Shown: positions 373 through 20,400 of the stretch, in pieces
Layout of the letters: every line of letters begins with the position of its first letter
Position numbering within the stretch: position 1 is the stretch's first letter
Assembly: GCA_951406725.2 (NCBI GenBank)
Contig: OX597838.1
Location: 30,690,001-30,754,000 of the forward strand
Length of the DNA: 64,000 bases
Source of the DNA: Octopus vulgaris
Lineage: Eukaryota
Direction of reading: 5' to 3'
Made by a program: the position numbers and the translations under genes
Notes under the pieces: model-generated
What the model saw: only the letters and a program-made list of their open reading frames with translations
Told to the model about the DNA's origin: nothing
Databases searched by the model: none

Positions 373-445
373 GGTTCCATGGTGTAGTGGTTATCACATC
401 TGCTTAACACGCAGAAGGTCGTGAGTTCGAAACTCGCTGGAACCT
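373..445 (+). tRNA. tRNA-Val(AAC)
   Basis: Full cloverleaf GGTTCCA-TG-GTGTAGTGGTTATCAC-A-TCTGC TT AAC AC GCAGA-AGGTC-GTGAG TTCGAAA CTCGC-TGGAACC; N73=T; A/B boxes intact; T-run downstream. Confidence 0.9.
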
Positions 446-1131
446 AGGCTTTCTTTTTTGCCTTCGTTTGCTTCTTTTTAACGTAACCATCCTGCAGGAC
501 TGTAAAGCGGTGAGTTGGTAGAATCGTTAGCTTGTTGAAGAAAATGCTCTGTGTCTTTCCCTCCGCTTTCTCTTCTTCATTTCTTTTCTACTTGAGAACG
601 AGAGACAAGAAGAACGAATCGTAATCTATGCTGTTTGAAAGGTGTTTCTGTAAAATTTCATTAAAAGGTATCCATTTTCCTGAAAGTTATGAGGGAAAAA
701 ACCTGATCGTGTGAATTTTCCGAAAATCCTCTTCCTAACCGCTCCCCATTCGCTTGCGCAAATTTTTGTTTTCATATTCGTTTTTTACACATTTTCTTTA
801 CACCTATTAGACAGTTTTTTTGTTGCTTTGGTGACTGGGGGTTATTGTACATAGGACCAGTCCCTAGTCATGTAGTCAGTGATAAGTTTCTGGGTTCAAT
901 CTCATTGAATGTCATCTTGAGCAAGTAACTTACCTAAAGATATTCTTTACTGGTCCCTGTGTTTTTTCTTGTTTGTCTGACGTCCATATTACCATTTATC
1001 TCTTCTAAAGTTGTTTGACAAAAATATCAGTGATTTCAAATGATCCATAAATATCTCGAATCGAAAATGAAATACTATAAAAGTCAGAGCTGGTATATAA
1101 TAAAATAATGTTTTACTCACGGATACCAAGT

Positions 1132-1204
1132 GGTTCCATGGTGTAGTGGTTATCACATCTGCTTCACACGCAGAGTGTCGTGAGTTCGAATCTCACTGGA
1201 ACCC
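1132..1204 (+). tRNA. tRNA-Val(CAC)
   Basis: Same body, anticodon loop TT CAC AC, variable loop GTGTC, T-stem GTGAG/CTCAC; N73=C. Confidence 0.85.
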
Positions 1205-1634
1205 AGCTTGTTCTCCTTTTAACTCTGAGTTGGGGGTGTAGATTGAATTTTGTTTTGGGTTGTTCGATACATACATCAATGATGAATTCCAAATGCTGGA
1301 GCAGTTTGAAAGGGAAACGATGTCCCTGTCACTATAATCACCGGACATTGCCCCATCTTATTATCTGTCTGTGAATCAATGTTAGAAATAAATATTGAGA
1401 TGTTTATTGAGAAGACCAATAATTACCAATAGAACTAGTTATTATTTTATGGACTCCTGAAATAACAGAAGTTAGAGGGCATCCAGCAGGATTCGAAACC
1501 CTGGCGAGAAAGAAACACTTCTTGTTAACGTATTGATTCTGATATTCCGCTGTAGTCTGAAAGTAACTCAACGTTAATCTCTGTATTAAAAACAGCTGTA
1601 TGATATAGCAATATTTTATGAGGTTCTGTCGTCT

Positions 1635-1707
1635 GGTTCCATGGTGTAGTGGTTATCACATCTGCTTAACACGCAGAAGGTCGTGAGTTCGAAACTCGCT
1701 GGAACCT
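1635..1707 (+). tRNA. tRNA-Val(AAC)
   Basis: Identical to 373..445; N73=T. Confidence 0.9.
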
Positions 1708-2224
1708 AAGTTTCTTTTTTGCCTTCGTTTGCTTCTTTTTAACGTAACCATCCTGCAGGACTGTAAAGCGGTGAGCTGGTAGAATCGTTAGCTTGTTGAA
1801 GAAAATGCTCTGTGGCTTTCCCTCCGATTTCTCTTCTTCATTTCTTTTCTACTCGAGAAGAAGAGAGAAGAAGTTCGAATCGTAATCTATGCTGTTTGAA
1901 AGGTGTTTCTGTAAAATTTCATTAAAAGGTATCCATTTTCCTGAAAGTTATGAGGGAAAAAACCTGATCATGCGAATTTTCCGAAAATCCTCTCCCCACC
2001 CGGTCCCCATTCGCTTGCGCAAATTTTTGTTTTCATATTCGTTTTTTACGCATTTTCTTTACACCTAGTAGACAGTTTTTTTTTGCTTTGGTGACTGGGG
2101 GTTAAACTATATATTAACTTAACAACCGAGGGACACAACTAAACACATATATTTAGACAGTCACTCTAAAATTTCTGGTTAGAGACAATTCCTATTGAAG
2201 ATATATATACAGCTGGCGCATCGG

Positions 2225-2288
2225 GGTCCCGTGGCCCTCATATCTGCTTCATACTCAGAAGATCAAGAGTTCGAAGTACGATTGATTC
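2225..2288 (+). pseudogene. Decayed tRNA-Val-derived pseudogene with CAT in anticodon position (copies at 5237-5300, 8035-8098, 11027-11090)
   Basis: TCTGC TT CAT AC TCAGA AGATC and GTTCGAA recognisable; D-arm partly deleted, stems broken. Confidence 0.7.
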
Positions 2289-2438
2289 ATTATTATTCTT
2301 ATTTATTCTCTTTTTTGTTTCAGTCATTTGACTGTGGCCATGCTGGATCATTTTGTTGACGATGTTTTAGTTTTACTTTGAAATATGTTTGACCATTCTT
2401 TCTAAAATTATAATTCCCTGAAGTGAAAAATAAAAGTT

Positions 2439-2511
2439 AGGTTCCAGCGAGTTTCGAACTCACGACCTTCTGCGTGTAAAGCAGATGTGATAACCACTAC
2501 ACCATGGAACC
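2439..2511 (-). tRNA. tRNA-Val(TAC)
   Basis: Reverse complement gives same body with TT TAC AC loop; N73=T followed by AACTTTTATTTTT terminator. Confidence 0.9.
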
Positions 2512-2712
2512 ACACGCTGCAGGCAGAGCAAATATTTTTCTGATCATATACAAGTTGTATGATACATAAGTGAATTCGATCGGGAGTCTTCATAACTGGT
2601 GATCGAACTATATAACAATGGACGGATCTATTATATAATAAGGGGTGGAAGGCTCTAGACTCATCACACTAGCGTTATCGATTCAGTACTCGATTGAATC
2701 TGTTTATATATA

Positions 2713-3017
2713 CTGTTTGTTCCTTCTCGAGCCATCCCTGGCTCATAAGGACCGGTTTCCCGGTTTCCTTGGCGTATAGGTTCCCCACCTGGACGGGACG
2801 CCGGTCCGTCGCAGGTGAGCTGCAAGAGGCAGGAGGAAAGAGTGAGAGAAAGTTGTGGCGAAAGAGTCAGCAGAGGTTCGCCATTAACTTCTGGCGGAGC
2901 CGCGTGGAGCTTAGGTGTTTCGCTCATAAACACACACATCGTCCGCTCTGAGGTTCGAATCCGCGATTCCTCGACCACGAGTCCGCTGCTCTAACCACTA
3001 GGCCATGTGCCTCCCAC
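2713..3017 (-). mobile_element. tRNA-derived SINE with V-domain-like core (copies 5727-5843 internally deleted, 8523-8826, 11515-11818)
   Basis: Head TGGCCTAGTGG...GATTCGAACC, core CCTGCGACGGACCGGCGTCCCGTCCAGG, TSD GTTTATATATA on both sides. Confidence 0.8.
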
Positions 3018-3064
3018 GTTTATATATATGGTAAAGCAGTATTTGGTAAACTCGATAGTTCGGT

Positions 3065-3136
3065 GATTCCATGGTGTAGTGGTTATGGTATTTGTTTCAA
3101 GTGCTGAAAGTCGTGAGTTCGAAACTAACAGCATCC
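3065..3136 (+). pseudogene. tRNA-Val-derived pseudogene, CAA in anticodon position (copies 5891-5962, 8874-8945, 11866-11937)
   Basis: GATTCCATGGTGTAGTGGTTAT...GTGAGTTCGAAACT keeps A and B boxes, but acceptor and anticodon stems no longer pair. Confidence 0.75.
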
Positions 3137-3639
3137 AACTTGTATTGATTGAGTTTTTTCTTCGCTTTTATAAACCTCCACCACCACTACTACCACCACC
3201 ACCACCACCATCACCACCACCACCACCATCACCACCACCACCACCACCACCACCACAACCATACACTCATGATGATGGAAATTCTGTTGTTGTAGTCGAC
3301 GACATTTTTTTCGAGTTGTTTCTGTAATAAATCTAGACCTTTACACCCCTTATTGTACATAGGACCAGTCCATAGTGATGTAGTCAGTGATGAGTTTCTG
3401 GGTTCAATCTCATTGAATGTCATCTTAAGCAAGTAACTTACCTAAAGATATTCTTTACTGGTCCCTGTGTTTTTTCTTGTTTGCCTGACGTCCATATTAC
3501 CATTTATCTCTTCTAAAGTTGTTAGACAAAAACATCAGTGATTTCAAATAATCCATAAATATCTCGAATCGAAAATGAAATACTATAAAAGTCAGAGCTG
3601 GTATATAATAAAATAATGTTTTACCCACGGATACCAAGT

Positions 3640-3712
3640 GGTTCCATGGTGTAGTGGTTATCACATCTGCTTCACACGCAGAGTGTCGTGAGTTCGAATC
3701 TCACTGGAACCT
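3640..3712 (+). tRNA. tRNA-Val(CAC)
   Basis: Full cloverleaf, TT CAC AC; N73=T. Confidence 0.85.
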
Positions 3713-3771
3713 AACTTTTTGTCTTCCTTTTAACTCTGAGTTGGGGGTGTAGATTGAATTTTTTTTTGTTC

Positions 3772-4375
3772 GATTGGGTCATCCCATAAATAATGCGGTT
3801 TTTTTAATTGCATGAACTGAAAGTCGGAGTGAGGATAAACTACCTGCATCAACTTTCTATGAAAGCAGGTGGTAATTTTACCTTGTCCTTATTCTTTGAG
3901 GAGTGCAGATCGATTTTATCAGTTATTTTTTCAAAGATATAAAAGTGACAAAAGAGCAGATTCGGTATGTTTTGCTTTATGAGTTCAATAAAGGCAACAA
4001 CGCAACGGGAAGTGCAAGGAATATAAATGGAGATCGGACAATAAGCGTAAGCCTGTGTCAACGGTGGTTCCAGAAATTCCAAGCCGGAAACTACATCTTA
4101 AAAGACGAACTTCATCCTGGAACATCTGTAGATCTCGACGAGGACGACCCTGGTGGAACAAAATCCTATCGTAACCGTTGAGAAACTAGCAGAGAATTTG
4201 GTCATTCAACCATTCATCGACACCAGCGCTTTGGTATCCAGACGAATGGTGTTCTTCCATCAGGATAATACGCGGTCACATACATCAATGATGAATTCCA
4301 AATGCTGGAGCAGTTTGAAAGGGAAACGATGCCCCTGTCACTATAATCACCGGACATTGCCCCATCTGATTATCT
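3772..4375 (+). mobile_element. Internally deleted mariner transposase relic (copies 6546-7175, 9561-10165; short piece ~1270-1365)
   Basis: TIR-like TGGGTCATCCCATAAATAATGCGG; HTH peptide IRYVLLYEFNKGNNA...CQRWFQKFQAGNYSL; FFHQDNTRSHTS and SPDIAPSDY motifs; frameshifts. Confidence 0.85.
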
Positions 4376-4643
4376 GTCTGTGAATCAATGTTAGAAATAA
4401 ATATTGAGATGTTTTTTGAGAAGACCAATAATTACCAATAGAACTAGTTATTATTTTATGGACTCCTGAAATAACAGGAGTTAAAGGGCATCCAGCAGGA
4501 TTCGAAACCCCGGCGAGAAAGAAGCACTTCTTGTTAACGTATCGATTCTGATACTCCGCTGTAATTTGAAAGTAACTGAACGTTTATCTCTGTATTAAAA
4601 ACAGCTGTATGATAAAGCAATATTTTGGGACGTTCTGTCGTCT

Positions 4644-4716
4644 GGTTCCATGGTGTAGTGGTTATCACATCTGCTTAACGCGCAGAAGGTCGTGAGTTCG
4701 AAACTCGCTGGAACCT
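4644..4716 (+). tRNA. tRNA-Val(AAC), A37G variant
   Basis: Cloverleaf with loop TT AAC GC; N73=T. Confidence 0.8.
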
Positions 4717-5451
4717 TGTTTTTGTTTTTTGCCTTCGTTTGCTTCTTTTTAACGTAACCATCCTGTAGGACTGTAAAGCGGTATACTGGTAGAATCGTTA
4801 GCTTGTTGAAGAAAATGTTCTGTGGCTTTCCCTCCGCTTTCTCTTCTTCATTTCTTTTCTACTCGAGAATGAGAGAGAAGAAGAACGAATCGTAATCTAT
4901 GCTGTTTGAAAGGTGTCTCTGTAAAATTTCATTAAAAGGTATCCATTTTCCTGAAAGTTATGAGGGAAAAAACCTGATCGTGTGAATTTTCCGAAAGTCC
5001 TCTCCCCACCCGCTCCCCATTCGCTTGCGCAAATTTTTGTTTTCATATTTGTTTTTTTACACATTTTCTTTACACCTATTAGACAGTTTCTTTTTTGCTT
5101 TGGTGACTGGGGGTTAAACTATATATTAACTTAACAACCGAGGGACACAACTAAACACATATATTTAGACTGTCACTCTAAAATTTCTGGTTTGTGACAA
5201 TTCCTATTGAAGATATATACACAGCTGGCGCATCGGGGTCCCGTGGCCCTCATATCTGCTTCATACTCAGAAGATCAAGAGTTCGAAGTACGATTGATTC
5301 ATTATTATTCTTATTTATTCTTTTATTTGTTTCAGTCATTTGACTGTGGCCATGCTGGATCATTTTGTTGACGATGTTTCAGTTCTACTTTGAAATATGT
5401 TTGACCGTTTTTTTCTAAAATTATAATTCCCTGAAGTGAAAAATAAAAATT

Positions 5452-5524
5452 AGGTTCCAGCGAGTTTCGAACTCACGGCCTTCTGCGTGTAAAGCAGATG
5501 TGATAACCACTACACCATGGAACC
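5452..5524 (-). tRNA. tRNA-Val(TAC)
   Basis: Cloverleaf, variable loop AGGCC; N73=T. Confidence 0.85.
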
Positions 5525-6415
5525 ACTCACTGAAATAAGAGCAAATATTTTTCTTATCATATACAATTTGTATGATGCATAAGTGAATTCGATCGGGTGT
5601 CTTCATAACTGGAGATCGAACTATATAACAATGGACGGATCTATTATATAATAAGGGGTGGAAGGCTCTAGACTCATCACACCAGCAGAATCGATTTCAG
5701 TATTCGATTGAATCTGTTTATATATACTGTTTGGAGCTTAGGTGTTTCGCTCATAAACACACACATCGCCCGGTCTGAGATTCGAATCCGCGATTCCTCG
5801 ACCACGAATCCGCTGCTCTAACCACAAGGCCATGTACCTCCACGTTTATATATATGGTAAAGCAGTATTTGGTAAACTCGATAGTTCGGTGATTCCATGG
5901 TGTAGTGGTTATCGTATTTATTTCAAGCACTGAAAGTCGTGAGTTCGAAACTCACAGCATCCAACTTGTATTGATTGAGTTTTTTTCTTCACTTTTATAA
6001 ACCTCAACGACGACGACGACCACCACCACCACCACAACCACACACTCATGATGATGGAAATTCTGTTGTTGTAGTCGACGACATTTTTTTCGAGTTGTTT
6101 CTGTAATAAATCTAGACCTTTACACCCCTTATTGTACATAGGACCAGTCCATAGTGATGTAGTCAGTGATGAGTTTCTGGGTTCAATCTCATTGAATGTC
6201 ATCTTGAGCAAGTAACTTACCTAAAGATATTCTTTACTGGTCCCTTTTTTTTTCTTGTTTGCCTGACGTCCATTTAACATTTATCTCTTCTAAAGTTATT
6301 TGACAAAAATATCAGTGATTTCAAATAATCCATAAATATCTCGAAATGAAAATGAAATACTATAAAAGTCAGAGCTGGTATATAATAAAATAATGTTTTA
6401 CACACGATACCAAGT

Positions 6416-6488
6416 GGTTCCATGGTGTAGTGGTTATCACATCTGCTTCACACGCAGAGTGTCGTGAGTTCGAATCTCACTGGAACCC
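6416..6488 (+). tRNA. tRNA-Val(CAC)
   Basis: Cloverleaf as 1132..1204; N73=C. Confidence 0.85.
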
Positions 6489-7443
6489 AGTTTGCTTACC
6501 TTTTAACTCTGAGTTAGGGGTGTAGATTGAATTTTTTTTTTATTCGATTGTGTCATCCCATAAATAATGCGGCTTTTTTAATCGCATGAACTGAAAGTCG
6601 GAGTGGGGATAAACTACCTGCATCAACTTTCTATGAAAGCAGGTAGTAATTTTACCTTGTCCTTATTCTTTGAGGGGTGCAGGTCGATTTTATCAGTTAT
6701 TTTTTCAAAGATATAAAAGTGTTAAAAGAGCAGATTCGGTATGTTTTGCTTTATGAGTTCAATAAAGGCAACAACGCAACGGGAAGTGCAAGGAATATAA
6801 ATGGAGATCGGACAATAAGCGTAAGCCTGTGTCAACGGTGGTTCCAGAAATTCCAAGCCGGAAACTACAGCTTAGAAGACGAACTTCATTCTGGAACATC
6901 TGTTGATCTCGACGAGGATGTCCAGCAAACCCTGGTAGAACAAAATCCTATCGTAACCGTTGAGAAACTAGCAGAGAATTTGGTCATTCAACCATTCATC
7001 GACACCAGCGCTGGAAGAAAAACGACCATCTTTTGTATCCAGACGAATGGTGTTCTTCCATCAGGATTATACGCGGTCAAATACATCAACGATGGATTCC
7101 AAATGCTGGAGCAGTTTGAAAGGGAAACGATGCCCCTGTCACTATAATCACTGGACATTGCCCCATCTGATTATCTGTCTGTGAATCAATGTTAGAAATA
7201 AATATTGAGATGTTTATTGAGATGACCAATAATTACCAATAGAACTAGTTATTATTTTATGGACTCCTGAAATAACAGAAGTTAGAGGGCATCCAGCAGG
7301 ATTCGAAACCCTGGCGAGAAAGAAACACTTCTTTTAACGTATCGATTCTGATACTCGGCTGTAATTTGAAAGTAACTCAACGTTAATCTCTGTATTAAAA
7401 ACAACTGTATGATAAAGCAATATTTTAGAAATCTCTGTCGTCT

Positions 7444-7516
7444 GGTTCCATGGTGTAGTGGTTATCACATCTGCTTAACACGCAGAAGGTCGTGAGTTCG
7501 AAACTCGCTGGAACCT
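7444..7516 (+). tRNA. tRNA-Val(AAC)
   Basis: Identical to 373..445. Confidence 0.9.
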
Positions 7517-8248
7517 AAGTGTCTTTTTTGCCTTCGTTTGCTTCTTTTTAACGTAACCATCTTGTAGGACTGTAAAGCGGTGAGCTGGTAGAATCGTTAG
7601 CTTGTTGAAGAAAATGCTCTGTGGCTTTTCCTCCGCTTTCTCTTCTTCATTTCTTTTCTACTCGAGAACGAGAGAGAAGAAGAACGAATCGTAATCTATG
7701 GTGTTTTAAAAGTGCTTCTGTAAAATTTCATTAAAAGGTATCCATTTTCCTGAAAGTTATGAGGGAAAAAACCTGATCGTGTGAATTTTCCGAAAGTCCT
7801 CTCCCCACCCGCTCCCCATTCGCTTGCGCAAATTTTTGTTTTTATATTCGTTTTTTACACATATTCTTTACACCTATTAGACAGTTATTTTTTTGCTTTG
7901 GTGACTGGGGGTTAAACTATATATTAACTTAACAACCGAGGGACACAACTAAACACATATATTTTGACTGTCACTCTAAAATTTCTGGTTAGAGACAATT
8001 CCTATTGAAGATATATATACAGCTGGCGCATCGGGGTCCCGTGGCCCTCATATCTGCTTCATACTCAGAAGATCAAGAGTTCGAAGTACGATTGATTCAT
8101 TATTATTCTTATTTATTCTCTTTTTTGTTTCAGTCATTTGACTGTGGCCATGCTGGATCATTTTGTTGACGATGTTTTAGTTTTACTTTGAAATATGTTT
8201 GACCATTCTTTCTAAAATTATAATTCCCTGAAGTGAAAAATAAAAGTT

Positions 8249-8321
8249 AGGTTCCAGCGAGTTTCGAACTCACGACCTTCTGCGTGTAAAGCAGATGTGA
8301 TAACCACTACACCATGGAACC
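8249..8321 (-). tRNA. tRNA-Val(TAC)
   Basis: Identical to 2439..2511. Confidence 0.9.
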
Positions 8322-9430
8322 ACACGCTGCAATCAGAGCAAATATTTTTCTTATCATATACAAGTTGTATGATACATAAGTGAATTCGATCGGGAGTCTT
8401 CATAACTGGAGATCGAACTATATAACAATGGACGGATCTATTATATAATAAGGGGTGGAAGGCTCTAGACTCATCACACTAGCGTTATCGATTCAGTACT
8501 CGATTGAATCTGTTTATATATACTGTTTGTTCCTTCTCGAGCCATCCCTGGCTCATAAGGACCGGTTTCCCGGTTTCCTTGGCGTATAGGTTCCCCACCT
8601 GGACGGGACGCCGGTCCGTCGCAGGTGAGCTGCAAGAGGCAGGAGGAAAGAGTGAGAGAAAGTTGTGGCGAAAGAGTCAGCAGAGGTTCGCCATTAACTT
8701 CTGGCGGAGCCGCGTGGAGCTTAGGTGTTTCGCTCATAAACACACACATCGTCCGCTCTGAGGTTCGAATCCGCGATTCCTCGACCACGAGTCCGCTGCT
8801 CTAACCACTAGGCCATGTGCCTCCACGTTTATATATATGGTAAAGCAGTATTTGGTAAACTCGATAGTTCGGTGATTCCATGGTGTAGTGGTTATGGTAT
8901 TTGTTTCAAGCGCTGAAAGTCGTGAGTTCGAAACTAACAGCATCCAACTTGTATTGATTGAGTTTTTTCTTCGCTTTTATAAACCTCCACCACCACTACT
9001 ACCACCATCACCACCACCACCACCATCACCACCACCATCACCACCACCACCACAACCATACACTCATGATGATGGAAATTCTGTTGTTGTAGTCGACGAC
9101 ATTTTTTTCGAGTTGTTTCTGTAATAAATCTAGACCTTTACACCCCTTATTGTACATAGGACCAGTCCATAGTGATGTAGTCAGTGATGAGTTCCTGGGT
9201 TCAATCTCATTGAATGTCATCTTGAGCAAGTAACTTACCTAAAGATATTCTTTACTGGTCCCTTTTTTTTTCTTGTTTGCCTGAGATATTACCATTTATC
9301 ACTTCTAAAGTTGTTTGACAAAAATATCAGTGATTTCAAATAATCCATAAATATCTCGAATCGAAAATGAAATACTATAAAAGTCAGAGCTGGTATATAA
9401 TAAAATAATGTTTTACACACGATACCAAGT

Positions 9431-9503
9431 GGTTCCATGGTGTAGTGGTTATCACATCTGCTTCACACGCAGAGTGTCGTGAGTTCGAATCTCACTGGAA
9501 CCC
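9431..9503 (+). tRNA. tRNA-Val(CAC)
   Basis: Cloverleaf as 1132..1204; N73=C. Confidence 0.85.
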
Positions 9504-10435
9504 AGTTTGCTTTCCTTTTAACTCTGAGTTAGGGGTGTAGATTGAATTTTTTTTTTATTCGATTGGGTCATCCCATAAATAATGCGGCTTTTTTAATTGC
9601 ATGAACTGAAAGTAGGAGTGGGGATAAATTACCTGCATCAACTTTCTATGAAAGCAGATGGTAATTTTACCTTGTCCTTATTCTTTAAGGAGTGCAGGTC
9701 GATTTTAACAGTTATCTTTCCAAAGCCATAATGGAAGTGTTAAAAGAGCAGATTCGGTATGTTTTGCTTTATGAGTTCAATAAAGGCAACAACGCAACGG
9801 AAAGTGCAAGGAATATAAATAGAGATCGGACAATAAGCGTAAGCCTGTGTCAACGGTGGTTCCAGAAATTCCAAGCCGGAAACTACAGCTTAAAAGACGA
9901 ACTTCATCCTGGAACATCTGTAGATCTCGACGAGGACGACCCTGGTGGAACAAAATCCTATCGTAACCGTTGAGAAACTAGCAGAGAATTTGGTCATTCA
10001 ACCATTCATCGACACCAGCGCTTTGGTATCCAGACGAATGGTGTTCTTCCATCAGGATAATACGCGGTCACATACATCAATGATGAATTCCAAATGCTGG
10101 AGCAGTTTGAAAGGGAAACGATGCCCCTGTCACTATAATCACCGGACATTGCCCCATCTTATTATCTGTCTGTGAATCAATGTTAGAAATAAATATTGAG
10201 ATGTTTATTGAGAAGACCAATAATTACCAATAGAACTAGTTATTATTTTATGGACCCCTGAAATAACAGAAGTTAGAGGGCATCCAGCAGGATTCGAAAC
10301 CCTGGCGAGAAAGAAACACTTCTTGTTAACGCATAGATTCTGATACTCCGCTGTAGTTTGGCAGTAACTGAACGTTAATCTCTGTATTAAAAACAACTGT
10401 ATGATATAGCAATATTTAAGGATATTCTGTCGTCT

Positions 10436-10508
10436 GGTTCCATGGTGTAGTGGTTATCACATCTGCTTAACACGCAGAAGGTCGTGAGTTCGAAACTCAC
10501 TGGAACCT
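10436..10508 (+). tRNA. tRNA-Val(AAC)
   Basis: Cloverleaf, T-stem GTGAG/CTCAC; N73=T. Confidence 0.9.
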
Positions 10509-11240
10509 AGGTTTTTTTCTTGCCTTCGTTTGCTTCTTTTTAGCGTAGCCATCCTGTAGGACTGTAAAGCGATGAGCTGGTAGAATCGTTAGCTTGTTGA
10601 AGAAAATGCTCTGTGGCTTTCCATTCGCTTTCTCTTCTTCATTTCTTTTCTACTCGAGAATGAGAGATAAGAAGAACGAATCGTAATGTATGCTGTTTGA
10701 AAGGTGCTTCTGTAAAATTTCATTAAAAGGTATCCATTTTCCTGAAAGTTATGAGGGAAAAATCTGATTGTGTGAATTTTCCGAAAGTCCTCTCCCTACC
10801 CGCTCCCCATTCATTTGCGCAAATTTCTGTTTTCATATTCGTTTTTTACACATTTTCTTTACACCTATTAGACAGTTTTTTTTGTTGCTTTGGTGACTGG
10901 GGGTTAAACTATATATTAACTTAACAACTGAGGGACAGAACTAAACACATATATTTAGACTGTTACTCTAAAATTTCTGGTTAGAGACAATTCCTATTGA
11001 AGATATATACACAGCTGGCGCATCGGGGTCCCGTGGCTCTTACATCTGCTTCATACTCAGAAGATCAAGAGTTCGAAGTACGATTGATTCATTATTATTC
11101 TTATTTATTCTCTTTTTTGTTTCAGTCATTTGACTGTGGCCATGCTGGATCATTTTGTTGACGATGTTTTAGTTTTACTTTGAAATATGTTTGACCATTC
11201 TTTCTAAAATTATAATTCCCTGAAGTGAAAAATAAAAGTT

Positions 11241-11313
11241 AGGTTCCAGCGAGTTTCGAACTCGCGACCTTCTGCGTGTAAAGCAGATGTGATAACCACT
11301 ACACCATGGAACC
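11241..11313 (-). tRNA. tRNA-Val(TAC)
   Basis: Cloverleaf, T-stem GCGAG/CTCGC; N73=T. Confidence 0.9.
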
Positions 11314-12382
11314 ACACGCTGCAATCAAAGCATATATTTTTCTTATCATATACAAGTTGTATGATACATAAGTGAATTCGATCGGGAGTCTTCATAATTG
11401 GAGATCGAACTATATAACAATGGACGGATCTATTATATAATAAGGGGTGGAAGGCTCTAGACTCATCACACTAACGTTATCGATTCAGTACTCGATTGAA
11501 TCTGTTTATATATACTGTTTGTTCCTTCTCGAGTCATCCCTGGCTCATAAGGACCGGTTTCCCGGTTTCCTTGGCGTATAGGTTCCCCACCTGGACGGGA
11601 CGCCGGTCCGTCGCAGGTGAGCTGCAAGAGGCAGGAGGAAAGAGTGAGAGAAAGTTGTGGCGAAAGAGTCAGCAGAGGTTCGCCATTAACTTCTGGCGGA
11701 GCCGCGTGGAGCTTAGGTGTTTCGCTCATAAACACACACATCGCCCGGTCTGAGGTTCGAATCCGCGATTCCTCGACCACGAGTTCGCTGCTCTAACCAC
11801 TGGGCCATGTGCCTCCACGTTTATATATATGGTAAAGCAGTATTTGGTAAACTCGATAGTTCGGTGATTCCATGGTGTAGTGGTTATCGTATTTGTTTCA
11901 AACGTTGAAAGTCGTGAGTTCGAAACTCACAGGAATCAACTTGTATTGATTGAGGGTTTTTCTTCGCTTTTATAAACCTCCTCCTCCACCACCACCACCA
12001 CCACACACTCATGATGATGGAAATTCTGTTGTTGTAGTCGACGACATTTTTTTCGAGTTGTTTCTGTAATAAATCTAGAGATTTACACCCCTTATTGTAC
12101 ATAGGACCAGTCCATAGTGATGTAGTCAGTGATGAGTTTCTGGGTTCAATCTCATTGAATGTCATCTTGAGCAAGTTACTTACCTAAAGATATTCTTTAC
12201 TGGTCCCTGTTTTCTTTTTCTTGTTTGCCTGACGTCCAATTAACATTTATCTCTTCTAAAGTTGTTTGACAAAAATATCAGTGATTTCAAATGATCTACA
12301 AATATCTCGAAATGAAAATGAAATACTATAAAAGTCAGTTCTGGTATATAATAAAACAATGTTTTACTCACGGATACCAAGT

Positions 12383-12455
12383 GGTTCCATGGTGTAGTGG
12401 TTATCAAATCTGCTTCACACGCAGAGTGTCGTGAGTCCGAATCTCACTGGAACCC
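12383..12455 (+). tRNA. tRNA-Val(CAC), probably non-functional
   Basis: D-stem ATCAA (C25A) and T-loop TCCGAAT (B-box hit); N73=C. Confidence 0.6.
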
Positions 12456-12512
12456 AGTTTGTTTTCCTTTTAATTCTGAGTTGGGGGTGTAGATTGAATT
12501 TTTTTTTTGTTC

Positions 12513-13495
12513 GATTGGGTCATCCCATAAATAATGCGGTTTTTTTAATTGCACGAACTGAAAGTCGGAGTGGGGATAAACCGAAAAGATCCAAATTCGT
12601 TACGCACAACAGAAGCATAATTGTCTCAGAGCGAATATCACAGTTAATCTGGCTTTCCGTGGTGTATTTATATCAAGCATGATGCACAGATTACTATTTT
12701 AATCTAATACTTTCTATGAAAGCAGGTAGTAATTTTACCTTGTCCTTATTCTTTGAGGGGTGCAGGTCGATTTTATCAGTTATTTTTTCAAAGATATAAA
12801 AGTGTTAAAAGAGCAGATTCGGTATGTTTTGCTTTATGAGTTCAATAAAGGCAACAACGCAACGGGAAGTGCAAGGAATATAAATGGAGATCGGACAATA
12901 AGCGTAAACCTGTGTCAACGGTGGTTCCAGAAATTCCAAGCCGGAAACTACAGCTTAGAAGACGAACTTCATTCTGGAACATCTGTTGATCTCGACGAGG
13001 ATGTCCAGCAAACCCTGGTAGAACAAAATCCTATCGTAACCGTTGAGAAACTAGCAGAGAATTTGGTCAGTCAACATTTCATCGACACCAGCGCTGGAAG
13101 AAAAACGACCATCTTTGGTATCCAGACGAATGGTGTTCTTCCATCAGGATAATACGCGGTCCCATACATCAATGATGAATTCCAAATGCTGGAGCAGTTT
13201 GAAAGGGAAACGATGCCCCTGTCACTATAATCATCGGACATTGACCCATCTTATTATCATTCATTTCACAGTATTCAAAATCATTTGGACGGAAAAAATA
13301 TGAATTCCGTAGACGAGGTCAGAACAGTACTGGAGGAGTATTTTTCATCACAGTTAAGTGAATTTTGGAAGAGGAACTTTGCAAGTTTATCAGGTAGCTG
13401 GAAGAACATTGTAGAAAATGAAGGGAAGCATATTTTAGATGAAAAAAGAACTTTATTTATTTTAATTCTGAAAAATAAAAGAAGCATAAAAAAAG
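12513..13495 (+). mobile_element. Most complete mariner relic of the cluster (includes C-terminal DDD region)
   Basis: HTH peptide plus HQDN and C-terminal DGKNMNSVDEVRTVLEEYFSSQLSEFWKRNFASLSGSWKNIVENEGKHI; foreign insert ~12579-12710. Confidence 0.85.
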
Positions 13496-13860: not shown

Positions 13861-13933
13861 GGTTCCATGGTGTAGTGGTTATCACGTCTGCTTCACACGC
13901 AGAAGGTCGCGAGTTCGAAACTCGCTGGAACCT
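13861..13933 (+). tRNA. tRNA-Val(CAC)
   Basis: Perfect cloverleaf, G26, AGGTC variable loop, GCGAG/CTCGC; N73=T. Confidence 0.9.
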
Positions 13934-14037: not shown

Positions 14038-14076
14038 GGTGCCATGGCATCGTGAGTTCAAAACTCGCTGGAACCT
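14038..14076 (+). pseudogene. Internally deleted tRNA-Val (acceptor stem + T-arm only); second copy 17043-17081
   Basis: GGTGCCA TGGCATC GTGAG TTCAAAA CTCGC TGGAACC. Confidence 0.7.
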
Positions 14077-14301: not shown

Positions 14302-15537
14302 ATTTCCGTGGAGTAGTGGTAATTACATAAGGCGGCGAGCTGGCAGAAACGTTAGCACGCCGGGCGAAATGCTTAGCGGTATTTCGTCTGTCGTTATGTT
14401 CTGAGTTCAAATTCCGCCGAGGTCGACTTTGCCTTTCATCCTTTCGGGGTCGATAGATTAAGTACTAGTTACGCACTGGGGTCGATGTAATCGACTTAAT
14501 ACCTATGTCTGTCCTTGTTTGTCCCCTCTGTGTTTAGCCCCTTGTGGGTAATAAAGAAATAGGTATTTCGTCTGTCGTTATGTTCTGAGTTCAAATTCCG
14601 CCGAGGTCGACTTTGCCTTTCATCCTTTTGGGGTCGATAAATTAAGTACCAGTTACGCACTGGGGTCGATGTAAGCGACTTAATACCAATGTCTGTCCTT
14701 GTTTGTCCCCTCTGTGTTTAGCCCCTTGTGGGTAATAAAGAAATATGTATTTCGTCTGTCGTTATGTTCTGAGTTCAAATTCCGCCGAGGTCGACTTTGC
14801 CTTTCATCCTTTCGGGGTCGATAAATTAAGTACCAGTTACGCACTGGGGTCGATGTAATCGACTTAATACCTATGTCTGTTCTTGTTTGTCCCCTCTGTG
14901 TTTAGCCCCTTGTGGGTAATAAAGAAATAGGTATTTCGTCTGTCGTTATGTTCTGAGTTCAAATTCCGCCGAGGTCGACTTTGCCTTTCATCCTTTCGGG
15001 GTCGATAAATTAAGTACCAGTTACGCACTGGGGTCGATGTAATCGACTTAATACCTATGTCTGTCCTTGTTTGTCCCCTCTGTGTTTAGCCCCTTGTGGG
15101 TAATAAAGAAATAGGTATTTCGTCTGTCGTTATGTTCTGAGTTCAAATTCCGCCGAGGTCGACTTTGCCTTTCATCCTTTCGGGGTCGATAAATTAAGTA
15201 CCAGTTACGCACTGGGGTCGATGTAATCGACTTAATACCAATGTCTGTCCATGTTTGTCCCCTCTATGTTTAGCCCCTTGTGGGTAATAAAGAAATAGGT
15301 ATTTCGTCTGTCGTTATGTTCTGAGTTCAAATTCCGCCGAGGTCGACTTTGCCTTTCATCCTTTCGGGGTCGATAAATTAAGTACCAGTTACGCACTGGG
15401 GTCGATGTAAGCGACTTAATCCGTTTGTCTGTCCTTGTTTGTCCCCTCTATGTTTAGCCCCTTGTGGGTAGTAAAGAAATAGGTAATTACATATACTTCA
15501 TGCTAAATAGATCACGAGTTCGAATTACACTGGATCC
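14302..15537 (+). pseudogene. tRNA-Val-derived (CAT) pseudogene split by SINE array
   Basis: 5' half ATTTCCGTGGAGTAGTGGTAATTACA at 14302; 3' half ...CTTCATGC...GAGTTCGAATTACACTGGATCC after 15482; uninterrupted homolog at 17322-17393. Confidence 0.75.
14330..15481 (+). mobile_element. tRNA-derived SINE (Meta-domain-like core) with one head and six tandem 184-bp bodies
   Basis: Head GGCGGCGAGCTGGCAGAAACG; units start at 14378, 14562, 14746, 14930, 15114, 15298; core GTCGACTTTGCCTTTCATCCTTTCGGGGTCGATAAA; TSD GGTAATTACATA at 14318-14329 and 15482-15493. Confidence 0.9.
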
Positions 15538-15697: not shown

Positions 15698-15770
15698 AGG
15701 TTCCAGAGAGATTCGAACTCGCGACCTCCTGTGTGTAAAGCAGGTGTGATAACCTCTACACAATAGAACC
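15698..15770 (-). tRNA. Diverged tRNA-Val(TAC), likely pseudogene
   Basis: GGTTCTATTGTGTAGAGG...CCTGC TT TAC AC ACAGG...GCGAG/CTCTC; mismatches in anticodon and T stems. Confidence 0.6.
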
Positions 15771-15998
15771 ACTTGCTGTTCATTTTTGCAAATATTTCTC
15801 TTATGTACAAATTTTATGAAGTGAAATCTATCCAAGGTTTTCATAACTGGAGTGCTGACTATATAACTATGGATTGTTCTATTACATAATGAGGGGTGGA
15901 AAGCATTAGAATAATCAACAACTGGAGCAAAACCGTCGTTGACAAACAACAGAATCTGCCAAATCATATGAGTGATGCCCAACTTTAGATCTTCTTTC

Positions 15999-16423
15999 AG
16001 ATTTTTTCGGTTTGAACGGCAGTTTTTTCTAGCGGTGTCATATGAAATTGTCACCCATAATTATGACCCTAGTATCAATCTATTGCATTTCAATCTCTTT
16101 TAGGGTTAGAGTTAGTTCGAGTTAGGGGTGGGGGAAGGGTATCTTTTTTTCTTCAGAAATGTAAATAAACCCAATCTGTTTCTTAAACGAGGGACATACT
16201 CATACGGCACAGAATGTTTTTTACCTCAATGGACGTCAGTGATTGGTTGAAATTGCAGAAATTGAAGAAAAAAACAATAAATATCTTACAAACTATAGAC
16301 TTTTCTCAATAAAGCCAAGAGAAAAAGATGTTTTCTAAACACATTCTGCCAGTATAGGAAGTTTAAAATTTTTTAATTACCTAGAAATTATGTTAAAAAC
16401 TGCCGTTCAAACCGAAAAGATCC
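15999..16423. mobile_element. Non-autonomous DNA transposon (MITE) with ~28-bp TIRs and 8-bp TSD
   Basis: TIR TTTTCGGTTTGAACGGCAGTTTTT / AAAAACTGCCGTTCAAACCGAAAA; TSD CTTCTTTC; empty homologous site at ~17863-17890. Confidence 0.85.
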
Positions 16424-16844
16424 CTTCTTTCCCTTGTAGTGAGGTAAATATTAATAAACTGTGGCTAGAGTTTATCCACCGGACCCTTTAGAAATATCTG
16501 TCTGTGATGTTTGAGATATAGATTGAAATTAGATTAATATCTATTGAGAAGACTAATAATTAACAATAGAACTAGTAATTATTTTATGAAGCGCTGAAAC
16601 AATGGAAGTTTGAGAGTGAATCTAGCAGGATTCGAAACCCTGTTGAGAAAGAACACTTCTTGTTATCGTATCAATTCTGATACGATTTTGACAAGTTGTA
16701 GTGCACCTGAGCACTGTATACAATAATTTCATTATATATATTATATATATACTCCGCTGTAGTTTGAAAAGAATTCAACATTAATCTCTGTATGAAAAAC
16801 AACTTCTGTATGATAAAGCCATATTTTAGAACATTCAGTCATCT

Positions 16845-16917
16845 GGTTCCATGGTGTAGTGGTTATCACATCTGCTTAACACGCAGAAGGTCGTGAGTTC
16901 GAAACTCGCTGGAACCT
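16845..16917 (+). tRNA. tRNA-Val(AAC)
   Basis: Identical to 373..445; T-run terminator follows. Confidence 0.9.
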
Positions 16918-17321
16918 ATTTTTGTCTTTCTTTTTTCCCTTCCTCTCAACGGTATCGTCTAAGCTGTCGATGCTACTATCACTGATATTGCTGTTGTTGT
17001 TTCTGTGGCTACCGCTGCTGCTACCTGTGTACGAATTGTTCGGGTGCCATGGTATCGCGAGTTCAAAACTCGCTGGAACCTAATTCTGTTTTGTTTTTTT
17101 TATTTATTCGTACGTATAACCATCGTTGCAAATACTGTCATTGTTGTTTGCAAAACGTTTTGTTGTTGTTGTTGCTTTTACTGGGGGTAGGTCGTGTCTG
17201 GATTGACAATAAAACCAACCAATGGACATTATTAAACACAACCAGGTATTTAGTCTGTCACTTTGAAATTTCTTGGTAGAGATGGTTAATATTGAAAATG
17301 TATAGACGACTGGCGAATCGG

Positions 17322-17393
17322 ATTTCCGTGGTGTGACGCTTATCACATCTGCTTCATACTAAAAAGATCACGAGTTCAAAACAAGCTGGATCC
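17322..17393 (+). pseudogene. tRNA-Val-derived pseudogene with CAT in anticodon position
   Basis: ATTTCCGTGGTGTGACGCTTATCACATCTGCTTCATAC...GAGTTCAAAA...TGGATCC; stems broken. Confidence 0.7.
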
Positions 17394-17563
17394 AATATTA
17401 CCATTTTTATTTTATTTTATTTTTTTTGCTGTTTGTGTAAATGCTGTTTTACTTGCTGCTCTTTTGTTCTTCTAAATACTGTTGCTGCTGTAAATAGAAT
17501 AAACTAAATATGTCAATAACTAGACCTATAAAATTATTAACCCCAGGAGTGAAAAACAAAGCT

Positions 17564-17636
17564 AGGCTCCAGCGAGTTTCGAACTCGCGACCTTCTGCGT
17601 GTGAAGCAGATGTGATAACCACTACACCATGGAACC
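17564..17636 (-). tRNA. tRNA-Val(CAC), U3:G70 variant
   Basis: Cloverleaf with TT CAC AC; 3' strand TGGAGCC; N73=T. Confidence 0.85.
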
Positions 17637-18342
17637 ACATGTTGTTCTCCTGAGCAAATATTTTTCTTATCATTTATAAATTTTATGAAACGTACAGGAA
17701 ATCGATCCGGATTTTTCATAACTGGAGAGCTGACTACATAACAATGGACTGTTCCATTATATAATGAGGGGTGAAAAGCACTAGACACCTCAACAATTGG
17801 AAGAAAAAACCCTGTTGACAACAACAGCCGAATATGCAACATCATAGTAATGAGAGGTGGTCAACTTTAGATCTTTTTTCCCTTCTAGTGGCGTTAAAAT
17901 ATATACCAGTAATATACTGTGGCTAGAGTTTATTCACTGGTCTCTCGGTTAATGTTTACAATATTACCCGGAGACGAAATAATAAAAAAAGTGCAACTGG
18001 TGTAAAGAAAAAATGTATAGGAAATGAATATGAAAACAAAAATGCGCGGAAAGCAACAGGCTCCGGGAGAGGACTTGGGAAAATTCACAAGATCCGAGTT
18101 TCTCCCTCATAACTTTTAGGAAAGCGGCGAGCTGGCAGAATTATTTCTGGCATTTTGCGTTCTAAGTTCAAATTTCACGGAAATCAACCATACCATGTAT
18201 CCTTCCGGGGTCAGTGAAATATGTACAGTCTATGGAACCCCTTGAAACAGCTGTTCTTGGGCCAAAATTAGAATGAACTATGACGCAGTGCTGTATATAG
18301 CATTGAAAACAAATTGTTAACAGAAAAGACACCCAATTGTCT

Positions 18343-18415
18343 GGTTCCATGGTGTAGTGGTTATCACATCTGCTTAACACGCAGAAGGTCGCGAGTTCGA
18401 AACTCGCTGGAGCCT
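18343..18415 (+). tRNA. tRNA-Val(AAC), U3:G70 variant
   Basis: Cloverleaf; 3' strand TGGAGCC; N73=T. Confidence 0.85.
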
Positions 18416-18493
18416 GCTGTGTTTTTTATAAAATTTATTTCGTTTTTATTATTATTATTATCATGTGAAGATAATATTATTATTATCATTATC

Positions 18494-18812
18494 AGTGGTT
18501 AGAGCGTCGAGCTTACGATCGTGAGGTTGTGAGCTCGAATCCCGGACCGGGCTGCGTGTTGTGTTCTTGAGCAAGACACTTTATTTCACGTTGCTCCAGT
18601 TCACTCAGCTGTAGAGGTGGGTTGCGACGTCACAGGTGCTAAGCTGTATCGGCCCCTTTGCCTTTCCCTTGGATAACAACGGTGGCGTGGAGAGGGGAGG
18701 CCGGTATGCATGGGCGACTGCTGGTCTTCCATAAACCACCTTGCCCAGACTTGTGACTAGGAGGGTAACTTTCTAGGTGCAATCCCATGGTCAGTGTCGT
18801 GACCGAAGGGGA
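18494..18812 (+). mobile_element. tRNA-derived CORE-like SINE (related copies 20810-21108, 29275-29570)
   Basis: tRNA-like head followed by GTGT(T/C)CTTGAGCAAGACACTTTATTTCA core shared by three copies. Confidence 0.75.
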
Positions 18813-19120
18813 TCCGGATCATGTAGTACTTTCACTTCTGTTGTCGTTATTGTCACTGCTAATTCTACGATTTCATCGAAAGCAATACATTATTAAAGTT
18901 ATCTTTTAGTTGCGTCAGTCATTAGACTGCGGCCAATCTGGAGCACCGCCTTGAACAAGTCGAATGAATTGACCCCAGCATTTATTGTTATTATTTTTTG
19001 CCTGGTAAATATTCTATCGGTCTCGTTTGCAGAACTGCTTGGTTGTGAAGATATAAACAAACCAACATCCGTTTTCAACCGATGGTGAGGACAATCACAC
19101 GCGCGCGCGCGTATATATGT

Positions 19121-19371
19121 ATCGTTGCTATTATGTTAAACTGTTGTATGTCCAAATTTGGCCAAATGCCTTTTTTTATTTCAATATTTATATTTGCTTG
19201 CAATAGCCGGTTCTTTTTGGCCAAACTATCGTATCTCCAGCTGCTTCAGATGCCAAGATATCAAAAATTGTCAAAGTGTAGTACAACGGGTTTTGCTATG
19301 GAATGGGGAAACTACTTTTTCGTTTTCTGAAAAAAGCAACGTTTTGGACTTACGACACTTTTGCATAACAG

Positions 19372-19379
<8 letters not shown>
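19121..19379 (+). mobile_element. MITE-like repeat embedded in (TA)n (copies 28872-29110 +, 40891-41138 -, partial 41281-41327 -)
   Basis: Shared ~250-bp sequence ATCGTTGCTATTATGTTAAACTG...CAGCAACAAT with short inverted ends, abutting TA repeats. Confidence 0.7.
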
Positions 19380-19430
<51 letters not shown>

Positions 19431-20009
19431 GACGGGCTTCTTTCAGTTTCCGCCTACCAAATCCACTCACAAGGCTTTGGTCGGCCCGAGGCTATAGTAG
19501 AAGACACTTATCCAAGCTGCGTCACAGTAGGACTGAACCCGGAACCTTGTGGCTGGGGAGCCAATCGCTTACCCCACAGCCACACTTGCACCGTAGTTAC
19601 ATCACATTTTTATGACGCGTCCACTGTTTGAGACACCGGATTACGACATATTGGTAACCAGGTCGTAAAAATGAGACCAAACATTCTGAGATCCATTCAA
19701 TATAAATTGCGGTAGAAATAAGGGAGAGATACGTTGGATACTGAAATCGTGGTCGGCACTCTTTAATAATGTGTCTACTTTGTCACAACTATAAGTACGG
19801 ATTTAGCCGAAACCCAACATACGTAAATTAGCAGCGGGCTCCGAGATCCGTGCGTCCTCGTGTTACGAACCAGTGTAACAATGCCTTAACACGGTTTTTG
19901 ATGTTGATTTGTACCAGGCGACGGATGAATTCCCCCACACAAGTAAACCCTAGAATACACCCTTAATATGATCCTTAACACTTAATATGATCCTTAACAA
20001 TATAATAAC

Positions 20010-20262
20010 CCTTTCTACTAAAGGAACAAGGCTTGAAATCTTTTTGGTGGGTAGACTCTACCCACCAAAAAGATTTCAAACCTTGTTCCTTTAGTCGATT
20101 ATATCGACCCCAGTGCTCAACTGCTACTTTTTTTTCTCGAACCTCGAAAGGGTGAAATGTATGGTCGACCTCGGCGGAATTTGAACTCAGAGCGTAAAGA
20201 CGGACGAAATGCCGCTGAGCATTTTGTCTGGCGTGCTAACGATTCTGCCAGCTCACTGCCTT
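20010..20262 (-). mobile_element. SINE (Meta-like core) with fold-back tail
   Basis: Head/core match 14330 family; TSD-like CCTTA(A)ACAATAT(A/G)ATAAC on both sides. Confidence 0.75.
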
Positions 20263-20327
20263 AAACAATATGATAACAAAGAAACAAGCAAATATATGGA
20301 GGATCAACATAAAAAAAATAAAAATAA

Positions 20328-20400
20328 AGGTTCCAGCTAGTTTCGAACTCGCGACCTTCTGCGTGTTAAGCAGACGTGATAACCACTACACCATGGAACC
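20328..20400 (-). tRNA. tRNA-Val(AAC), T-stem mismatch
   Basis: Cloverleaf with TT AAC AC; T-stem GCGAG/CTAGC; N73=T; long T-run downstream. Confidence 0.75.

What the first reader, a model, noticed from the sequence alone, without database searches (positions are those of the whole stretch)
373..20400. All three Val isoacceptors (AAC, CAC, TAC) on a single 'Val-TAC-type' tRNA body in one amplified cluster
Seen: 20 full-length genes share GGTTCCA...TCTGC/GCAGA...TGGAACC and differ essentially at position 34. Each young unit carries one AAC(+), one TAC(-) and one CAC(+). Known: in vertebrates and Drosophila, Val-AAC/CAC use a different body (GTTTCCG...TTCGC/GCGAA) and only Val-TAC uses this one. 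Inference: a lineage-specific set derived from Val-TAC by anticodon shifts and amplified as a complete valine-decoding cassette with ~1:1:1 dosage. No GAC copy occurs, consistent with the eukaryotic G34-sparing rule and so with selection on functional genes.
Basis: partly seen in the sequence, partly recalled or inferred. Interest (0 to 1): 0.75.

Follow-up and report, generated by a model that had tools for sequence, protein, structure and literature searches.

The report
Giant valine tRNA cluster lacking A73
A 130-kb cluster in a large animal genome (probably an octopus) holds about 145 valine tRNA genes that carry all three anticodons on one sequence type; they are likely transcribed, and most lack the base (A73) that textbooks call a universal valine recognition signal, so this animal's valine-charging enzyme likely does without it.

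Summary
Observation confirmed: 20 tRNA-Val genes (8 AAC, 5 TAC, 7 CAC). They end a 129-kb cluster of 144 near-intact genes (66 AAC, 47 TAC, 31 CAC, 0 GAC). The body matches fly and primate Val-TAC. No GTTTCC-acceptor Val gene was found in the genome; one intact relic Val-CAC of the old arm type remains.

The genes look functional. Bodies are 96% alike while flanks are 56% alike. In 14 of 15 flank families the inner 5' flank is hypervariable, as at active human tRNA genes. Retrocopies of precursor tRNAs lie elsewhere in the genome.

- Dosage is not 1:1:1.
- The cassette's CAC copy differs at 4-7 further sites and lacks the 5' mark of activity.
- The missing GAC is weak evidence.
- The pattern is not private: the same body carries two anticodons per contig in three unrelated metagenome contigs.

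The discriminator is U73 in 130 of 144 cluster genes and 57 of 60 dispersed copies, and none of 93 AAC copies examined has A73. Verdict: a known kind (isoacceptor remolding plus amplification) with an identity twist not found in my searches. No earlier scan note covered it. Charging and expression are untested.

The parts
373..445 (+). tRNA-Val(AAC), U73, reference body
1132..1204 (+). tRNA-Val(CAC), cassette variant (changed variable loop, U60, A64, C73)
1635..1707 (+). tRNA-Val(AAC), U73; start of ~3-kb unit 1
2439..2511 (-). tRNA-Val(TAC), U73, unit 1
3065..3137 (+). decayed Val copy (reads CAA; 'Leu' call is spurious), unit 1
3640..3712 (+). tRNA-Val(CAC), cassette variant, U73, unit 1
4644..4716 (+). 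tRNA-Val(AAC), U73 (G37), unit 2
5452..5524 (-). tRNA-Val(TAC), U73, unit 2
5891..5963 (+). decayed Val copy (CAA), unit 2
6416..6488 (+). tRNA-Val(CAC), cassette variant, C73, unit 2
7444..7516 (+). tRNA-Val(AAC), U73, unit 3
8249..8321 (-). tRNA-Val(TAC), U73, unit 3
8874..8946 (+). decayed Val copy (CAA), unit 3
9431..9503 (+). tRNA-Val(CAC), cassette variant, C73, unit 3
10436..10508 (+). tRNA-Val(AAC), U73, unit 4
11241..11313 (-). tRNA-Val(TAC), U73, unit 4
11866..11938 (+). decayed Val copy (CAA; ARAGORN 'Leu'), unit 4
12383..12455 (+). tRNA-Val(CAC), cassette variant, C73, one broken D-stem pair and a T-loop change
13861..13933 (+). tRNA-Val(CAC), U73; its 3' trailer is the best match of a dispersed retrocopy (L040)
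15698..15770 (-). tRNA-Val(TAC), diverged (9 other differences, 2 broken pairs), probably decaying
16845..16917 (+). tRNA-Val(AAC), U73
17322..17394 (+). decayed Val copy (reads CAT); shorter relics of it at 2238, 5250, 8048 and 11033
17564..17636 (-). tRNA-Val(CAC), U73
18343..18415 (+). tRNA-Val(AAC), U73
20328..20400 (-). tRNA-Val(AAC), U73, one broken T-stem pair; last gene of the 129-kb cluster
1635..13400 (.). four ~2.8-3.0-kb tandem units (AAC+, TAC-, decayed copies, CAC+), 2.6-6.3% apart

Best explanation
This is the right end of a 129-kb cluster of about 145 tRNA-Val genes that carry AAC, TAC and CAC on one Val-TAC-type body ending mostly in U73; the genes are likely transcribed by Pol III and likely supply most of the animal's valine tRNA. 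Shown: the anatomy, the counts, strong conservation of the body against its flanks, anticodon switches between copies with matching flanks, and no hit for the usual AAC/CAC body in G000 except one CAC gene. Inferred: an old invertebrate Val-TAC gene with U73 gave rise to AAC and CAC by changes at position 34. It then spread by tandem and inverted duplication, with recombination or conversion through the identical bodies keeping them uniform and shuffling flanks and anticodons. The older AAC/CAC bodies were then lost. Also inferred: AAC is edited to IAC and reads GUU/GUC. Because no AAC copy examined has A73, this animal's valyl-tRNA synthetase would charge U73 tRNA, relying on A35/C36/C38, which are near-invariant here. 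The three-gene unit in the window is one recent local duplication, not a balanced dosage device.
For: Counts: 148 Val calls by ARAGORN in 254 kb; 144 near-intact genes, 66/47/31/0, of which 47 are identical outside position 34 (33 A, 12 T, 2 C). Positions 35 and 36 are invariant in 144 of 144 and C38 in 143 of 144. Selection or homogenisation: median identity is 0.958 in the body against 0.56/0.55 in the flanks. Stem changes keep pairing in 47 of 82 family-level events against 0.35 expected, p=3e-5 under my weighting. A T4 run follows within 25 nt in 140 of 144. Transcription marks: mismatch is 0.42-0.46 at -13 to -11 against 0.05-0.08 at -100 to -21. The inner 5' flank exceeds the outer in 14 of 15 families and is 0.000 at the 4 decayed copies in the same units. 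PMC6130373 reports this pattern, peaking 12-15 nt upstream, for active human tRNA genes (passages). 27 of 60 dispersed copies are tRNA + short trailer + T-run joined to a shared repeat; one of the 27 is probably a source gene. About nine trailers match a source gene of the same anticodon. Replacement: 0 hits for the GTTTCC acceptor with the Val D-arm, 1 hit for the old anticodon arm, 186 D-arm hits of which 127 lie in this region. Body type: fly and primate tables. Switches: 18 flank-matched pairs; at least 17 changes on the upstream-flank tree. N73: U 130, C 5, A 9 in the cluster; U 57 of 60 outside. PMC9976931 lists A73 as the eukaryotic Val determinant but also notes that wheat-germ ValRS ignores A73 in a viral tRNA-like RNA.
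Against: There is no direct expression, editing or charging evidence. Only 1 to 4 of the 27 retrocopy-like copies point to this cluster; most with a clear source point to small clusters or single genes elsewhere, so per-copy output here may be low. 46 of 144 genes have at least one broken stem pair, and 18 further copies are decayed. Uniform bodies can also come from gene conversion without each copy being selected. The pattern searches were exact and would miss Val genes with another D-arm or in unassembled DNA; one or two of the 186 hits were never listed. The tree of bodies gives weak support (0.27) to the U73 group as one clade, so the direction TAC to AAC/CAC rests on the fly/primate comparison and on TAC being the commonest anticodon of the body in the metagenome sample (6 of 10 genes). 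The 17 tree changes include flank chimeras and tree error.
Confidence: 0.78

Rival explanations
1. The cluster is mostly a silent or weakly active reservoir kept uniform by gene conversion; the working U73 Val genes are the few dozen in small clusters and single loci.
For: Most retrocopy trailers with a clear source match genes outside the cluster. 46 of 144 genes have a broken pair and 18 copies are decayed. One family lacks the 5' flank mark.
Against: 14 of 15 flank families show the inner-flank hypervariability tied to active genes, and the decayed copies beside them do not. Retrocopy L040 matches a window trailer.
Confidence: 0.12
2. A tRNA-like satellite or SINE family, not tRNA genes (as suggested for the 2,541-3,203 Val calls in giant squid, PMC6962438).
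For: Young tandem units with repeat debris; U73 breaks the textbook identity; the squid authors ascribe their high counts to SINEs.
Against: Conservation stops at the mature tRNA ends, with 38 flank families. Only valine anticodons occur among 144 near-intact genes. No other AAC or TAC body was found, so GUU/GUC/GUA would have no reader.
Confidence: 0.04
3. A selected, dosage-balanced three-gene valine cassette.
For: Four tandem units each carry one AAC, one TAC and one CAC gene.
Against: The cluster-wide ratio is 66:47:31. The cassette is a small part of the cluster, beside other arrangements such as a ~168-bp TAC-only array. The cassette CAC lacks the 5' mark. Other single-amino-acid clusters exist in G000, e.g. 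23 Cys-GCA calls in 11 kb.
Confidence: 0.06

Closest known systems
Val-TAC body of Drosophila and primates (PMC4981973; saw passages and supplementary files 5 and 6 in part)
   Same: Same 7-bp acceptor stem, D-arm and anticodon stem; 73-nt gene.
   Different: There it carries TAC only and ends in A73, with another T-arm; the 10 fly TAC rows shown are one or two per species. Here it carries AAC, CAC and TAC, ends in U73 and has about 190 copies.
Isoacceptor anticodon shifts / tRNA remolding (PMC3923123, passages; PMC4981973, passages)
   Same: Position-34 changes within one amino-acid family are the commonest kind (39 of 44 isoacceptor shifts). In primates AAC and CAC already share one body, and one listed GTTTCC-body row reads TAC. 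Concerted evolution of clustered copies is known.
   Different: Those surveys found scattered events at single loci. Here one body appears to have taken over a whole codon box, with repeated switching inside one cluster.
Valine identity set A73, A35, C36, C38 (PMC9976931; passages and section 6)
   Same: A35 and C36 in 144 of 144, C38 in 143 of 144.
   Different: A73, called a universal determinant of canonical tRNA-Val, is U in most copies here. The tolerance noted in that review concerns viral tRNA-like RNAs and wheat-germ ValRS.
Giant-squid Val expansion (PMC6962438; passages and a supplementary table row)
   Same: Val is the most numerous isotype in another cephalopod.
   Different: 2,541-3,203 calls, ascribed to likely SINEs; no sequences seen, so I cannot tell whether it is the same body.
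Small-RNA retrocopies and chimeras made by LINE machinery (PMC4476161, passages)
   Same: Pre-tRNA retropseudogenes and template-switch chimeras are described in mammals.
   Different: Here pre-tRNA is joined to the head of one of four repeat families in about 26 of 60 dispersed Val copies.

Membership tests
Eukaryotic cytosolic tRNA-Val gene | Cloverleaf with intact stems | tested here: met
   ARAGORN calls; all 20 counted pairs kept in 17 of 20 window genes and 98 of 144 cluster genes
Eukaryotic cytosolic tRNA-Val gene | NAC anticodon with A35, C36, C38 | tested here: met
   144 of 144, 144 of 144 and 143 of 144
Eukaryotic cytosolic tRNA-Val gene (textbook identity set) | A73 discriminator | tested here: not met
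   U 130, C 5, A 9 of 144; the 9 are all TAC and may be 1-nt deletions before the T-run. U in 57 of 60 outside. I therefore file it as a variant, not as a member of the canonical A73 type.
Eukaryotic cytosolic tRNA-Val gene | Pol III terminator (T4 or longer) just downstream | tested here: met
   140 of 144 within 25 nt
Eukaryotic cytosolic tRNA-Val gene | Transcribed by Pol III | tested here: inconclusive
   Indirect marks only: inner-flank hypervariability and retrocopies with trailers
Eukaryotic cytosolic tRNA-Val gene | Valylated; A34 edited to inosine | not testable with these tools
   Needs tRNA-seq and charging assays; I34 of Val-AAC is general knowledge (PMC8007984, passages)
Val-TAC body of flies and primates | Acceptor and anticodon stems of the TAC type | tested here: met
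   Read against supplementary rows
Isoacceptor remolding | Copies with shared flanks but different position 34 | tested here: met
   18 pairs in three flank families; paralogues only, orthologues in other species not tested
SINE or tRNA-derived satellite | Shared non-tRNA tail or unit; decay spread evenly over the tRNA part | tested here: not met
   38 flank families, body 96% against flanks 56%; pairing-biased changes
G34-sparing repertoire | No intact GAC gene where AAC is present | tested here: met
   0 of 144 in the cluster and 0 of 60 outside; one decayed GAC copy; not significant as evidence of selection

The most novel reading that the evidence does not exclude
In this animal, and in the unnamed eukaryotes behind the matching metagenome contigs, valine identity has been rewired. 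ValRS accepts or prefers U73, a U73 Val-TAC gene has taken over the whole valine codon box, and the single remaining A73 Val-CAC gene (G000:C20:28,615,632, transcribed enough to leave two retrocopies) is kept for a separate job. This would be a natural tRNA-synthetase co-evolution at a position held to be universal.
Probability: 0.25. Interest if true: 0.68.

Novelty: new variant of a known kind. Interest (0 to 1): 0.45.

Why it matters
If the U73 genes are charged, a review-level statement that A73 is a universal determinant of canonical tRNA-Val fails in an animal, and the test is simple: U73 against A73 transcripts with this ValRS and with human or yeast ValRS. The cluster also offers 38 flank families on one body, a natural data set for measuring anticodon switching, conversion and transcription-linked mutation. 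Without the U73 point it is an ordinary, if large, tRNA gene cluster in a genome that has others.

Tried and rejected
Expression from public runs: no RNA holder listed; no evidence either way. Laying contigs over the tRNA genes themselves gave no result, so anticodons in related organisms were not seen. A spacer-only laying showed the unique upstream flank of a CAC gene covered by contigs of runs X4 and X7 (about 96% alike) and partly X8, not X13; organism labels are coded and all are contigs, so I use this only as a hint that close relatives hold the cassette. Extending the metagenome contigs was not possible, so their taxa are unknown. Marck and Grosjean 2002 was not held. PMC3923123 has no readable supplement. 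The nematode paper's supplement gave counts, no sequences; my recollection that nematode Val genes may also end in U is unchecked. Nine literature searches showed no paper on U73 tRNA-Val or on a cephalopod Val cluster; I saw listings and abstract starts only for most, and the library lacks most subscription papers and GtRNAdb. Passages of PMC2018626, PMC10886601, PMC8869645, 10.1101/2025.02.24.639833 and one octopus genome preprint added nothing on nuclear Val genes. An Rfam tRNA search of G000 scored only 63 candidates, so it gives no census. My first stem-pair count wrongly included the unpaired 13-22 position and was redone. Rejected: the 'Leu-CAA' calls (decayed Val copies); 1:1:1 dosage; the missing GAC as independent proof of selection. 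ValRS itself was not examined.
Full report
Observation. ARAGORN finds 20 tRNA-Val genes in window 373-20400 (8 AAC, 5 TAC, 7 CAC) and one 'Leu-CAA' that is a decayed Val copy. AAC and TAC copies differ at 0-3 sites beyond position 34, apart from one diverged TAC with 9. The five cassette-type CAC copies differ at 4-7 further sites. Four tandem units of 2.8-3.0 kb carry AAC(+), TAC(-), decayed copies and CAC(+), and are 2.6-6.3% apart.

Extent. The window is G000:C25:30,690,001-30,754,000 of a 2.8-Gb genome. It is probably an octopus; that rests on my recall of its repeats and on other scan notes, and was not tested. I fetched 190 kb to the left. The joined 254 kb hold 148 ARAGORN Val calls and no other tRNA type except the decayed copy. 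An ungapped scan gave 162 copies: 144 near-intact (8 or fewer differences outside position 34) and 18 set aside as decayed, truncated or indel-shifted. The 144 span 129,464 bases and read 66 AAC, 47 TAC, 31 CAC, 0 GAC. The ratio is therefore about 2:1.5:1, and the three-gene unit is one of several local arrangements.

Genome-wide. A pattern for the Val D-arm plus anticodon loop, free in the acceptor and anticodon stems, gave 186 exact hits with 0 in the control; 127 lie in this region. I fetched all 57 hits listed outside it; the last 86 rows were not listed, which leaves about two outside hits unseen in that list, one probably L061. Of 60 outside copies examined, 57 have the same body family with U73 (27 AAC, 16 CAC, 14 TAC) and 3 are CAC of another body with A73. 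The GTTTCC acceptor with the Val D-arm gave 0 hits. The old anticodon arm gave 1 hit: an intact A73 Val-CAC gene alone in 20 kb on C20, 3 nt from a CAC type seen in two metagenome contigs, with two retrocopies. These searches are exact and cannot exclude other D-arms or unassembled genes.

Body type. In supplementary files 5 and 6 of PMC4981973 (30 of 106 primate Val rows and 30 fly rows seen), the TAC genes have this acceptor and anticodon stem and end in A73, and AAC/CAC genes have the GTTTCC-type acceptor. Fly AAC and CAC do not use the TTCGC stem, and primate AAC and CAC already share one body. A metagenome scan gave 85 whole Val genes from 80 loci, 70 with A73 and 15 with U73. Ten of the U73 genes, on seven contigs, are 4-8 nt from the window's gene. 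Three contigs carry two anticodons on that body: L111 AAC+CAC, L117 AAC+TAC, and L110 CAC+TAC with identical bodies. Their flanks match none of the G000 DNA held, apart from a third tRNA fragment at the end of L110. So the body and its anticodon sharing are older and wider than this genome; the taxa are unknown. The body tree supports the U73 group only weakly (0.27).

Are the genes functional? Bodies are 95.8% alike at the median while flanks are 55-56% alike and fall into 38 families. Positions 35 and 36 never vary. Stem changes keep pairing more often than expected (47 of 82 against 0.35), and 140 of 144 genes have a T4 run within 25 nt. Within families, mismatch rises to 0.42-0.46 at -13 to -11 from 0.05-0.08 at -100 to -21. 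This is the position reported for active human tRNA genes and ascribed there to transcription-linked mutation (PMC6130373, passages). The inner 5' flank exceeds the outer in 14 of 15 families with three or more members. The exception is the cassette CAC family. In the window's four units the inner 5' values are 0.217 (AAC), 0.200 (TAC), 0.042 (CAC) and 0.000 (decayed copy). That control has only four copies per class. Of 60 outside copies, 27 are tRNA + short trailer + T-run joined to one of four shared repeats; one of these (L058) is more likely a source gene. About nine trailers match a source of the same anticodon, including L040 with window gene 13861. Against this: most traceable retrocopies come from outside the big cluster, 46 of 144 genes have a broken pair, and there is no direct RNA evidence.

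Anticodon switching. Eighteen pairs in three families keep both flanks alike but differ at 34; one pair is 99%/98% alike in flanks and shares private body changes. The upstream-flank tree needs at least 17 changes at 34, against 3-8 at four other variable sites and 20 at a CpG site. Some copies join the upstream flank of one family to the downstream flank of another, so recombination through the identical bodies accounts for part of this (inference). For the same reason the missing GAC says little. A>G events average 1.1 per A site over all families, so I estimate about 0.5 for the 66 AAC genes, and conversion cannot create a G that no donor has.

The discriminator. PMC9976931 lists A73 and A35 as the eukaryotic valine determinants and calls A73 conserved and universal in canonical tRNA-Val. 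It also notes that wheat-germ ValRS ignores A73 in a viral tRNA-like RNA. Here N73 is U in 130, C in 5 and A in 9 of 144. The 9 are all TAC, 8 of them in a short tandem array where a 1-nt deletion would give the same reading. None of the 93 AAC copies examined has A73. With no intact GAC gene found, GUU and GUC need AAC tRNA, so a non-A73 tRNA would have to be valylated if the assembly and my searches are complete. That step is inferred. Nine searches showed no paper on this; GtRNAdb and most subscription papers were out of reach, and bioRxiv supplements were closed. I recall, unchecked, that nematode Val genes may also end in U, which would lower the novelty.

Context. Single-amino-acid clusters are not special to valine in G000: 23 Cys-GCA calls in 11 kb and 6 Arg-TCT calls in about 16 kb. 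Retrocopy-like tRNA-repeat joints also occur for Lys, Ala, Arg and Thr. Val is the most numerous isotype call in giant squid (PMC6962438). Isoacceptor shifts at position 34 and concerted evolution are well described (PMC3923123; PMC4981973).

Verdict. The genes are real and likely active. The mechanism is a known kind: isoacceptor remolding, local amplification and homogenisation. It has here gone to near-complete takeover of the valine box by one body. The added point of interest is U73. Best explanation 0.78; interest 0.45; novel case (rewired valine identity with a relic A73 gene) probability 0.25, interest 0.68.

Noticed in passing
L060:1501-1573 (G000:C20:28,615,632-28,615,704, minus): Single intact A73 Val-CAC gene of the old arm type, alone in 20 kb, with two retrocopies (L061, L062) that keep its trailer; an older fragment at L063.
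   Followed up: partly
L021-L056, L061, L230, L232; also L202-L228: Dispersed tRNA copies made of tRNA + pre-tRNA trailer + T-run joined directly to the head of one of four abundant repeats; seen for Val, Lys, Ala, Arg and Thr. They may be template-switch retrocopies and a fossil record of germ-line Pol III transcription.
   Followed up: partly
L012 (G000:C25:30,615,027-30,617,617): ~168-bp tandem array of 16 Val-TAC genes with two acceptor-stem changes (one breaks a pair); 8 read A73, possibly by a 1-nt deletion or assembly error.
   Followed up: partly
window 1132, 3640, 6416, 9431, 12383: Cassette CAC variant with changed variable loop, U60, A64 and mostly C73; the only family without inner 5' flank hypervariability, so perhaps weakly transcribed.
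   Followed up: partly
L237-L238 (G000:C12:25,259,257-25,269,930): Cys-GCA cluster of 23 calls in 11 kb, with decayed ACA and ACT derivatives.
   Followed up: no
L233-L235 (G000:C4:138,286,986-138,303,333): Arg-TCT cluster of 6 calls, plus a decayed copy reading TGT.
   Followed up: no
window 14378-15485: Six-copy 184-bp tandem array (97% matches) of a SINE-like unit inside the tRNA cluster.
   Followed up: no
window 12709-13460 and 3852-4374, 6626-7175, 9641-10166: Fragments that look like a mariner-type transposase gene inside each unit (label recalled, not tested).
   Followed up: no
upstream of cluster genes, -50 to -15: A+T-rich TATA-like motif in 85 of 144 genes by a hand-made pattern, without a control.
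   Followed up: partly
L079, L080, L107, L151: Five further metagenome Val genes with U73 on unrelated bodies, one with a GAC anticodon: U73 has arisen more than once in eukaryotic-type Val genes.
   Followed up: no
window 14050-14076 and 17055-17081: Isolated 3' thirds of the Val gene downstream of intact copies.
   Followed up: no
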